A stretch of 13,553 nt of DNA from Azolla caroliniana. Taxonomy: Eukaryota; Plantae; Polypodiophyta. The position numbers and the translations under genes were made by a program. The notes under the pieces are model-generated. The model did not search any database, was not told where the DNA came from, and saw nothing but the letters and a program-made list of their open reading frames with translations. Below, one piece after another: positions 1 through 1,984 of the stretch. The stretch is from positions 1 through 13,553 of the forward strand of contig JBHGNT010000942.1 in assembly GCA_043228905.1 (NCBI GenBank). Reading direction: 5' to 3'. Every line of letters starts with the position of its first letter. The first letter of the stretch is position 1.

Positions 1-48
1 AAGGTTATTCCATGCCATAGGATCGTCAGGTTGTGCCAGAAGAACTAC
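1..48 (-). pseudogene. Possible TPR-protein fragment (VVLLAQPDDPMAWNNL), runs off the window edge
   Basis: Continues in frame from the Aurora fragment but no longer resembles a kinase. 'PDDPMAWNNL' resembles the TPR junction 'P-D-x-x-x-A-W-N-N-L-G'. Only 16 codons are visible. Confidence 0.35.
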
Positions 49-324
49 TTCGCATGGTGGAGCACCAAAGAGGAATTCATAACAGAGCACTCCTAAGCTC
101 CAGATGTCCTCACACCCTCATATGCTCCACTATCTTCCTTCTCAACTGATGCTCCACCTGTGACTGTTGTAGCTGTTTCTTCAATAGCACCTTCAACGCT
201 ACCACACACTTGCTCTTCTTCTCTCTTGCAGGTAAACATGTCATTATTTCCTTCTGCCCAGGGGCTTTCCAATGTTGAAGTCCCCAAGGATCCATCTCTT
301 CCCATGGATTTCCTTATTCTCCAT
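49..324 (-). pseudogene. Aurora kinase retro-fragment, internally deleted and disabled
   Basis: 324->131 reads MENKEIHGKRWILGDFNIGKPLGRRK**HVY(fs)AREKKSKCVVALKVLLKKQLQQSQVEHQLRRKI, matching plant Aurora 'KRWTLSDFDIGKPLGRGKFGHVYLAREK...VVALKVLFKSQLQQSQVEHQLRREVE'. 130->49 reads VEH..DIWSLGVLCYEFLFGAPPCE, matching subdomain IX 'VEHDASVDIWSLGVLCYEFLYGVPPFE'. The HRD/DFG/PPE core between them is missing; stops and frameshifts are present. Confidence 0.9.
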
Positions 325-412
325 TCCAGATCAGCAGAATACATCCGTGAATTGACCATGGCTTCGTTGACACCTCAACTAAAGCACACAGAAGAAGACA
401 CAACCATCTCTC

Positions 413-1104
413 CTCTGCCTCCATGTCCTACAGCATCTGTTGAGCTCGATCAAAGGATTTCAGATGAGAAACGGAGACCCATGGACTATTGCCGCAAGCA
501 GACTTCACGCTCTTGAGCATGGCCTTCGCTTCCTTCCGCCTGCCTTGCTCCATCAGACATATCCCAACGTTGCAGACCTTGTTGTTGTGCTTCTGCCGTT
601 ATAAAGCCCAATTGCTGCATGTATGCACATCCGAGATTTCAACAGAGCGATCTGATCATCCAACCGTCCACACCTCTTATACAAGTCCAATAACACATTA
701 TCCAGGCTTTCTTGAGCATGGTCTGAGCATCCATGGCGGAGCGACTTGATGGCCTCGTTCGCTTCTTCCGGCCTATTCTGCTGCTTCATCTCGATTGCCA
801 TATCTTTCAAGGCGATGTCCACTCTGTCTCCTGCGTTAATGGTGGCCCAAAACAACGCGATGGCTCTGTTGGGGTCCTTGTCAACGAGCTGGACGTGTTT
901 AGCTTTGACATAAGGAGTGTCTCCAATGGGGGCCTTGTGGATGACATGGAAGGAATTAGAGCGAGAAGAGGTGTGCGGCGCTTCGAGAGCAAGGCTTGAG
1001 AGGGGAGCAAGGAGCTGATTTGGAGAGTCGAGGTTGGCCATGGCCATGGCTCTAGCTCTGTAGGCTCTGGTTTTGGGGGATCTGCGAGAACAGGGGAGGC
1101 CCAT
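413..1104 (-). pseudogene. MS5/TDM1(POLLENLESS3)/SDI1-family TPR protein pseudogene, no introns visible, internally deleted
   Basis: 951->589 reads FHVIHKAPIGDTPYVKAKHVQLVDKDPNRAIALFWATINAGDRVDIALKDMAIEMKQQNRPEEANEAIKSLR..CSDHAQESLDNVLLDLYKRCGRLDDQIALLK..GLYNGRS. After a frameshifted junction, 586->413 reads NNKVCNVGICLMEQGRRKEAKAMLKSVK...SHLKSFDRAQQML*DME, with a premature TAG at 430-428. Both blocks match this family. Confidence 0.92.
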
Positions 1105-1119
1105 TCGTGGTGGATGCCA

Positions 1120-1140
1120 TGGTGGTGGTGGTGGTGGTGG
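1120..1140. repeat. (TGG)7 microsatellite
   Basis: Directly visible. It would read as poly-Pro in the MS5-like frame. Confidence 0.95.
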
Positions 1141-1243
1141 TGATGGAGGTGTTTAGATATACAGCCCGATGGTAAGGATGGCGATGGCGATGGTGAGAAG
1201 CACATCAACAAACAGGGAGCAGAGCAGTAACAGAAATAGGGGA

Positions 1244-1261
1244 GAAGAAGAAGAAGAAGAA
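1244..1261. repeat. (GAA)6 microsatellite
   Basis: Directly visible. Reads (TTC)n on the - strand, like a 5' UTR, upstream of the MS5-like fragment. Confidence 0.9.
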
Positions 1262-1426
1262 GCTAATCTACTTCTGCAGTTCGCATCCCTATCTTCCCTA
1301 TGCTTAGAGCTAATCGAGGAAGGGAACTCTTCTCAAACCACTGCTGACATGAAAGTGGTATGTTGTTGCAGTTGCTTCGCTACTTAGATTTGGTTCTTTC
1401 CACCGTCATAGATGTAGAAATACAAG

Positions 1427-1477
1427 TTAGCCATGGCCAAAAGCAACAATGCTCATATGTATCTTCTCCTTCCCCAT
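1427..1477 (-). pseudogene. eEF1A (elongation factor 1-alpha) N-terminal fragment
   Basis: ATG at 1477 gives MGKEKIHMSIVAFGHG*, against the plant eEF1A start MGKEK(I/V/F/T)HI(S/N)IVVIGHV. The mismatching codons (ATG, GCT, TTT, GGC) are each one base from Ile, Val, Ile and Val. The fragment is short. Confidence 0.7.
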
Positions 1478-1628
1478 GAGTGTAGATACCAGTAAATAGT
1501 CAAACAAGGTAGATGAGAATTAGGGATAGCGAGAGACACACACATTCACAATGCAGAGAGAGATAGAGAGAGTGAGGGATTAGTGACGAAGAGGGAAAGT
1601 GAGGATAGACTTCCGCTCAAGGGAGGTC

Positions 1629-1646
1629 GGCCGTTCAGGCGTGCCA
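1629..1646 (-). other. Primer-binding site, tRNA-Arg type (TGGCACGCCTGAACGGCC)
   Basis: Lies 4 nt after the LTR end (...GAGAACA cttt TGGCACGCC). The first 9 nt match the TGGCACGCC(CAGTGGGAC) PBS typical of Tat-lineage Gypsy elements. Confidence 0.7.
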
Positions 1647-1650
1647 AAAG

Positions 1651-1984
1651 TGTTCTCGGGTGAGGGGTGAAGCCTAGAATGGCTCCAGCCCCCTCCCAAG
1701 GGGGTTATGTGAGATAGAGAAAGAAGGACAGTGAAAATAAGAAGTGACACAAGAAATGTGAGGGGAAAAATGTATATCCATTAGATGCCCCATAAGGGGT
1801 TTATATAATACATAATGTATCGGTAAATAATGACTGTTACAAGAGAGACAACCGTTACACTCTTGTCACATGCACATAATTGTGCATGTGCTCACACATA
1901 CTCATCCTCACACACTCATTTACTTTACACATATACATCATTACACATACCCTTATGCCTCCCCATATGTTCTTACGGGTAACA
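1651..1984 (-). mobile_element. 5' LTR (334 bp) of a Tat-like, probably non-autonomous LTR retroelement
   Basis: TGTT...AACA termini, TATATAAACCCC box near 1796-1807, CT-rich tract downstream, PBS immediately after. The outer boundary is sharp: integrase codons of the host element begin at 1986. Confidence 0.75.

What the first reader, a model, noticed from the sequence alone, without database searches (positions are those of the whole stretch)
1..1984. LTR retroelement whose internal region is a chain of captured host mRNA fragments (eEF1A + MS5/TDM1-like + Aurora kinase + possible TPR gene)
Seen: a 334-bp TGTT...AACA LTR with TATA box and a TGGCACGCC PBS. No gag follows. Instead there are at least three unrelated host gene pieces, all in the element's sense orientation and butted together within 1.5 kb. 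Known: LTR elements can capture cellular mRNAs by template switching during reverse transcription (e.g. maize Bs1). Inference: this is a non-autonomous Tat-like multi-cargo element built by serial template switches. It could produce an LTR-driven chimeric transcript or siRNAs matching several host genes at once. Whether this family has been described cannot be judged from the window.
Basis: partly seen in the sequence, partly recalled or inferred. Interest (0 to 1): 0.85.

Follow-up and report, generated by a model that had tools for sequence, protein, structure and literature searches.

The report
Retrotransposon carrying four-plus spliced gene fragments
A jumping gene, likely from a fern, has no coding genes of its own in the part seen and carries end-to-end broken pieces of at least four host genes in several copies; it likely picked them up from messenger RNAs by template switching, a known way of shuffling genes, here with an unusually long cargo chain.

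Summary
Observation confirmed and extended. 1651-1984 is a high-copy LTR beside a 9-nt primer-site-like motif. Inward, on the minus strand, lie: an eEF1A start, an unidentified piece, an MS5/POLLENLESS3-like gene, Aurora kinase and a separate TPR gene. The MS5-like piece lacks two introns exactly where same-species contigs show splice sites. Aurora and TPR overlap by about 7 nt at their join. The chain is multicopy: L027 differs at 48 of 1,304 bases, 4 of 5 database proteins share its frameshift junction, and contigs under two organism labels bridge junctions. Best reading: a likely non-autonomous LTR retrotransposon that gathered mRNA pieces by serial template switches, then multiplied and eroded. 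Not shown: the second LTR, the TSD, transcription, siRNAs, Tat membership. Earlier scan notes describe a PPT-less lineage here with tRNA sites at both ends, so the primer site alone does not fix orientation; TATA and pyrimidine-patch polarity favour the minus strand. Known kind (maize Bs1, mouse 'Super' retrocopy). The scan noted similar captures in animal genomes, none for this chain.

The parts
1651..1984 (-). LTR, likely the 5' LTR; high-copy family
   Evidence: TGTT...AACA ends, TATATAAA at 1807-1800 followed by a 79% pyrimidine patch, 4 TGTAA on minus vs 0 on plus; depth and loose ends
1638..1646 (-). primer-binding-site-like motif TGGCACGCC, 4 nt from the LTR
   Evidence: sequence; the tRNA-Arg match is recalled and taken from unchecked earlier notes, not tested
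1565..1637 (-). likely element leader, shared with relatives that have other inner sequence
   Evidence: depth 2-4 times the cargo and loose ends at 1565/1568 in X3 and X5; joint 1559-1595 with 60 letters each side in X4
1478..1564 (-). unassigned: leader or eEF1A 5' UTR
   Evidence: cargo-level depth; no donor contig shown
1429..1477 (-). eEF1A start, 16 codons then stop
   Evidence: other contigs continue into GKSTTTG
1286..1421 (-). unidentified piece, possibly another donor or further 5' UTR
   Evidence: separate short contigs in X12 fit 1286-1421; no Pfam hit in three minus frames
1071..1285 (-). likely 5' UTR and start of the MS5-like donor, with microsatellites
   Evidence: host-like contigs fit up to 1112 and run on; 1113-1269 was skipped by the tool as repeats
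418..1070 (-). MS5/POLLENLESS3-like TPR gene piece, two introns absent, two internal deletions (at 638/639 and 588/589)
43..397 (-). Aurora kinase piece from the 5' UTR, with an internal deletion of about 120 codons
   Evidence: X15 record 9 fits 130-385 and 43-113 with 375 letters between
1..49 (-). piece of a separate TPR gene; continues about 14 nt past the window in L027, then unidentified sequence
1985..1989 (+). candidate 5-bp target-site duplication CTACG
1985..2545 (+). older, broken Ty3/gypsy integrase: the insertion target, cut 2-3 codons after the zinc finger and internally deleted
   Evidence: tblastn of P0251, P0252; Pfam Integrase_H2C2 and rve on the relatives

Best explanation
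This is likely one end of a non-autonomous LTR retrotransposon whose inner region is a chain of at least four host gene pieces (eEF1A, MS5-like, Aurora kinase, a TPR gene), likely copied from spliced mRNAs when reverse transcriptase switched templates, and the chain exists in several diverged copies. Steps. Shown: an LTR end with a primer-site-like motif; co-oriented pieces; exact loss of two introns in the MS5-like piece; overlap of about 7 nt at the Aurora-TPR join; shared junctions across copies; copy-specific deletions. Inferred: the element RNA runs along the minus strand; host mRNAs were co-packaged with it; reverse transcriptase crossed from one mRNA to the next at short matches or after reaching an mRNA 5' end (Aurora, MS5-like and eEF1A pieces all include the start region); the finished chain was re-copied in trans by an autonomous partner and then decayed as a passenger. 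Protein output is unlikely: every piece is truncated or frameshifted and at least nine ATGs precede the only long frame.
For: LTR status and copy contrast. Intron loss: same-label contigs leave the window at 889 into GT and enter at 677 from an AG-ending pyrimidine-rich stretch; across relatives 49 of 120 alignments stop at LYK and 56 of 120 start at residues 52-55, and 62 of 116 proteins with the motif read V next, as from a GT donor. Donor transcript-like contig for Aurora colinear over 256 nt, starting at its letter 25. Both donors fit 43-49. Multicopy: L027 48 differences in 1,304 aligned bases with the same junctions; 5 ENA proteins 84-97% identical, 4 of 5 with the frameshifted tail; two different X3 contigs bridge the MS5-Aurora join with 34 of 336 and 24 of 291 differences. 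Link to the LTR in another copy: X4 joint 1559-1595 with 60 letters each side. No poly(A) run. Precedent: PMC5131818 (abstract, passages, section 5), PMC13317346 (passages).
Against: The far end was not reached, so two LTRs and a TSD are not shown. Splicing is shown for one donor only; host introns for Aurora, eEF1A and TPR were not seen. Exact intron loss would also follow if genomic DNA was captured in sense and spliced in a later round. Overlap was measurable at one junction only; about 20 nt between Aurora and MS5-like (398-417) are unassigned. Both MS5-like deletions cover further intron positions (P0153; loose end at 589), which fits either route. Copies may partly be alleles or orthologues from different individuals. 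1552-1606 is 82% purine on the plus strand, which also fits a 3' end.
Confidence: 0.78

Rival explanations
1. The element reads on the plus strand: 1651-1984 is its 3' LTR, the tRNA-like site is the inverted cassette that replaces the PPT in a lineage noted earlier in this genome, and the cargo is antisense.
For: Earlier notes describe GGGCGTG-CCA just before the right-hand LTR (unchecked). 1608-1646 folds into two small hairpins as plus-strand RNA (z -1.9, 11 of 200 shuffles as good). Purine-rich 1552-1606.
Against: A full TATA consensus occurs only on minus, followed by 79% pyrimidines; TGTAA 4 vs 0 (shuffle p 0.0014, motif chosen from recall after reading the sequence). Spacer is 4 nt; one note gives 2. 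Depth at 1531-1620 (184-990) is far below the LTR's, unlike a family-wide 40-nt cassette. Four or more spliced pieces all antisense are hard to make by switching onto mRNA.
Confidence: 0.07
2. The pieces were captured as genomic DNA (repair-type gap filling inside the element, or a Pack-type DNA transposon later taken up) and lost their introns when the element's sense RNA was spliced in later rounds.
For: Sense cargo would be spliced; both MS5-like deletions cover intron positions; the stretch upstream of the eEF1A ATG is pyrimidine-rich and unassigned.
Against: No intron or promoter remnant is identified for any donor; the Aurora piece begins within about 25 nt of a transcript-like contig's start; no long inverted repeat bounds 1-1650.
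Confidence: 0.08
3. The chain is a multi-mRNA retrocopy made by another route (LINE-type or repair) that sits beside a truncated LTR element by chance and multiplied by segmental duplication.
For: No second LTR seen; low copy number compared with the LTR.
Against: 3'-truncated pieces with start regions kept and no poly(A) are the LTR pattern in PMC5131818; copies differ by internal deletions near the leader yet keep the link to the primer site; the integrase flank was not seen shared with other chain copies (not directly testable).
Confidence: 0.07

Closest known systems
Maize Bs1 (as described in PMC13317346 and PMC5131818, passages; the primary paper was not held)
   Same: Plant LTR element with pieces of several host genes; a few copies sharing the same switch points.
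   Different: Three donors there, at least four here; Bs1 forms a transcribed, translated hybrid frame, none is evident here; different host lineage.
LTR-mediated retrocopies of animals, incl. the mouse 'Super' retrocopy (Tan et al. 2016, PMC5131818; abstract, passages, section 5)
   Same: Partial, 3'-truncated, intronless pieces; short overlaps at switch points; several donors (four genes plus Alu in 'Super'); further rounds as non-autonomous elements.
   Different: Plant (likely fern); extra internal deletions that differ between copies; both LTRs not yet shown here.
[quoted passage not shown]
   Same: LTR elements with captured pieces, bias to first exons, 13.68% of carriers with two or more fragments.
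   Different: Genome-wide counts, not this family; RNA origin not shown per case in what I read. Their supplementary tables were not read.
Non-chromovirus Ty3/gypsy, Tat clade (Neumann et al. 2019, PMC6317226, passages)
   Same: Non-Met primer site; non-chromoviruses use tRNA-Arg among others; 5-bp TSD is the common length.
   Different: Tat is defined by an aRH domain in pol, which this copy cannot show.

Membership tests
LTR retrotransposon (non-autonomous) | LTR with TG...CA ends, repeated in the genome | tested here: met
LTR retrotransposon (non-autonomous) | Primer-binding site just inside the 5' LTR, matching a host tRNA | tested here: inconclusive
   9-nt motif 4 nt inside the LTR; host tRNA not retrieved; not found in held supplements of PMC6317226 or relevant papers
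LTR retrotransposon (non-autonomous) | Second LTR, PPT and TSD | not testable with these tools
   no genome; L027 ends 107 nt past base 1; record not searchable
LTR retrotransposon (non-autonomous) | No intact gag-pol | tested here: inconclusive
   none in the 1,650 bases seen plus 107 in L027; rest unseen
LTR-mediated retrocopy (Tan et al. 2016) | Exact intron loss | tested here: met
   two MS5-like introns; other donors not shown
LTR-mediated retrocopy (Tan et al. 2016) | Short shared sequence at switch points | tested here: inconclusive
   about 7 nt at 1 junction; other junctions lack both donor sequences; no chance control run
LTR-mediated retrocopy (Tan et al. 2016) | No poly(A) tail or separate TSD per piece | tested here: met
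   no A or T run of 6 or more; best shared words between neighbouring junction zones are 4-8 nt of AG-rich or microsatellite letters
LTR-mediated retrocopy (Tan et al. 2016) | Further copies sharing the same junctions | tested here: met
   separate insertion sites not shown
Tat clade of Ty3/gypsy | aRH domain and RT/INT phylogeny | not testable with these tools
   no pol linked to this LTR; viral-contig scans gave no relative
PPT-less, two-tRNA-site gypsy lineage (earlier scan notes) | Inverted tRNA-Arg site before the 3' LTR | not testable with these tools
   far end unseen; no look-alike notes by sequence
Pack-MULE / Helitron | Terminal inverted repeats or TC...CTRR ends; introns kept | tested here: inconclusive
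   introns are lost, no long inverted repeat at the visible end; far end unseen

The most novel reading that the evidence does not exclude
This is a gene-less passenger of the PPT-less gypsy lineage noted elsewhere in this genome, which has strung together five or six mRNA pieces from dividing or spore-forming cells (Aurora, MS5-like, eEF1A), is shared by two species, and yields small RNAs against several host genes at once. Its far end would carry an inverted tRNA site instead of a PPT, making it a natural test that both tRNA sites are the only cis signals needed for copying.
Probability: 0.15. Interest if true: 0.68.

Novelty: new member of a known kind. Interest (0 to 1): 0.42.

Why it matters
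It is a clear plant case of serial mRNA capture by an LTR element, at the upper end of the donor counts in the papers read (three for Bs1, four plus Alu for the mouse case), with copies that record step-wise erosion. My searches listed no fern case, judged from titles and abstract starts only. The donors would mark the cells in which heritable retrotransposition happens, and copies 8-11% different from their donors could be a small-RNA source against cell-division genes. It also creates false gene calls: five database proteins come from this cargo.

Tried and rejected
Own genome not held, so no leftward extension or copy count. Transcription: no RNA holder listed; run X15 (RNA by guess) gave donor-like contigs 8-11% different and no listed piece bridging a cargo junction (258 pieces not shown); run X12 has bridging contigs (333-487, 1328-1459) but is of unrecorded kind and holds an intron donor, so it is not counted as expression. 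Viral contigs: 26 pattern matches, none similar to the window by blastn; two more loci were chance hits; no relative for P0246. TPR donor: no homologue at E<=10 among 27 candidates; Atlas not available. Piece 1286-1421 and the L027 extension: no Pfam hit. eEF1A with upstream residues: 0 PDB hits. Rfam: two chance-level hits outside the finding. Selection on the 164-codon frame: 5 silent vs 6 replacement codons against L027, too few; L027 breaks the frame; database proteins are picked for being open. Rejected: that 418-588 is a separate TPR donor; that summed depth is a copy number (rough guide only: a handful of chains, hundreds or more LTRs).

Full report
Setting. No genome is held. The best named relatives of the main cargo are fern proteins (Ceratopteris 77%, Adiantum 75-76%), and earlier scan notes also read this genome as a fern, so 'fern' is an inference. 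Evidence from outside the window came from contigs of seven public runs, one metagenome contig (L027) and protein searches.

The LTR. 1651-1984 is 334 bp with TGTT...AACA ends. In four DNA runs its summed depth is thousands to tens of thousands, against tens to a few hundred over the cargo, and contigs leave the window with unrelated letters at both borders. Depth is no copy number, but the contrast is about a hundredfold. To the right lies a broken gypsy integrase; intact relatives place the cut 2-3 codons after the zinc finger, which fits an insertion target. TGGCACGCC lies 4 nt inside the other end. Its match to tRNA-Arg is recalled and echoed by unchecked notes; I could not test it.

The cargo, read along the minus strand. 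(1) eEF1A start at 1477, 16 codons then a stop. The PDB match is weak (E 1.4) but all 4 hits are eEF1A residues 1-15, and contigs in X3, X5 and X12 that leave the window at 1425-1431 continue with letters that read GKSTTTG (translated by hand). (2) 1286-1421, unidentified. (3) An MS5/POLLENLESS3-like gene from its likely 5' UTR to 418, matching residues 9-36, 45-about 151, 195-211 and about 224-279 of the best relative, so with two internal deletions. (4) Aurora kinase: a 1,039-letter contig of run X15 (RNA by guess) fits 130-385 from its letter 25 and 43-113, with 375 letters between. (5) A separate TPR gene at 1-49. L027 adds 107 letters beyond base 1: the TPR-like match seems to end after about 14, and the rest is unidentified. 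So four donors are named, with up to two more possible.

RNA origin. Among 120 short relatives, 49 alignments end at LYK and 56 begin at residues 52-55; 62 of 116 have V after the motif, as expected from reading into a GT donor. In runs with the label organism A, one contig leaves at 889 into GT and one enters at 677 from an AG-ending intron-like stretch. The window is continuous and in frame at both sites. For the other donors no host intron was seen. At the Aurora-TPR join both donors fit bases 43-49 once L027's letter at 47 is taken; Aurora's exact letters there were not printed. There is no poly(A) run and no convincing per-piece duplication.

Several copies. L027 shares all junctions over 1-1342 and differs at 48 of 1,304 bases, with its own indels. 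Five ENA proteins are 84-97% identical to the window's 164-codon frame; four carry the frameshifted tail made by the first deletion, the fifth stops before it. Within run X3 (organism B) two different contigs bridge the MS5-Aurora join. Joints at 1336-1425, 1421-1425, 1334-1461, 1378-1436 and 1559-1595 show copies with other deletions near the leader (several have short sides and are weak). The last, in X4 with 60 letters on each side, ties the chain-side sequence to the primer site in another copy. Some differences may be between individuals, and separate insertion sites are not shown.

Orientation. Earlier notes report a gypsy lineage in this genome with a tRNA-Arg end in place of the PPT (not checked). 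That makes the motif ambiguous: it could sit before a 3' LTR on the plus strand. For minus: the only full TATA consensus, a 79% pyrimidine patch behind it, TGTAA 4 to 0 (these cues are recalled), moderate depth over 1531-1620, and co-oriented spliced cargo. For plus: a purine-rich 1552-1606 and weak hairpins at 1608-1646. I put minus at about 9 in 10. The far end may still hold a tRNA site rather than a PPT.

Mechanism. Likely, host mRNAs were packaged with the element RNA and reverse transcriptase crossed between templates, at short matches or at mRNA 5' ends; the product kept the LTR and primer site, was re-copied in trans and decayed. Whether all switches happened in one round or several cannot be told. 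Protein output is unlikely. Transcription and small RNAs are untested.

Comparison. PMC5131818 (abstract, passages, section 5; supplements not read) describes the same features: partial and mostly 3'-truncated pieces, median 6-bp overlaps, multi-donor chimeras, secondary copies, and Bs1 with three donors in one to five copies. PMC13317346 (passages) reviews Bs1 and template switching. PMC13477047 (passages, section 12) finds multi-fragment capture in 13.68% of carriers across vascular plants including pteridophytes; its supplementary tables, unread, may list this kind of element. PMC6317226 (passages; 5 held supplement files searched) defines Tat by aRH, untestable here. Eight paper searches listed no description of this family. 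Earlier scan notes show the same kind of capture in animal genomes and nothing on this chain among the rows shown.

Verdict. Real and well supported as a multi-donor, RNA-derived cargo chain attached to an LTR end and present in several copies.

Noticed in passing
window 399-638 vs L027: Only 1 difference in 240 bases against 47 in the other 1,064 (binomial p about 6e-4 after removing the 22 forced bases): a mosaic of copies by recombination or conversion, or an assembler chimera.
   Followed up: partly
L027 1307-1413: Sequence beyond the window: end of the TPR piece, then about 90 unidentified letters, perhaps a further donor.
   Followed up: partly
window 2564-3392: AT-rich insertion with short inverted ends and an 8-bp duplication CTTTAGAC at 2564 and 3385, like a hAT-type MITE (label recalled), just behind the integrase tail.
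   Followed up: partly
window 3775-3782 and rightwards: TGGTATCA on the minus strand beside a TGTT start at about 3785: end of another LTR element with a Met-type primer site.
   Followed up: no
window 6172-11511 (minus): Multi-exon RNase III-like gene (Pfam Ribonuclease_3 E 0.002) with 48-57-nt coding repeats at 10701-10955.
   Followed up: no
window about 12120-13553: Copia-type 5' end: LTR-like stretch, TGGTATCA at 12597, Pol_BBD domain (E 2.6e-15).
   Followed up: no
run X1, joint 2430-1666: A contig joins the same integrase family to this LTR family at another position, hinting at repeated insertion into these elements or that both belong to one family.
   Followed up: no
run X12 on window 1-1625: Uneven cover peaking at 1266-1320 and 936-1100 with none at 1486-1625; kind of run unrecorded, so unexplained.
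   Followed up: no
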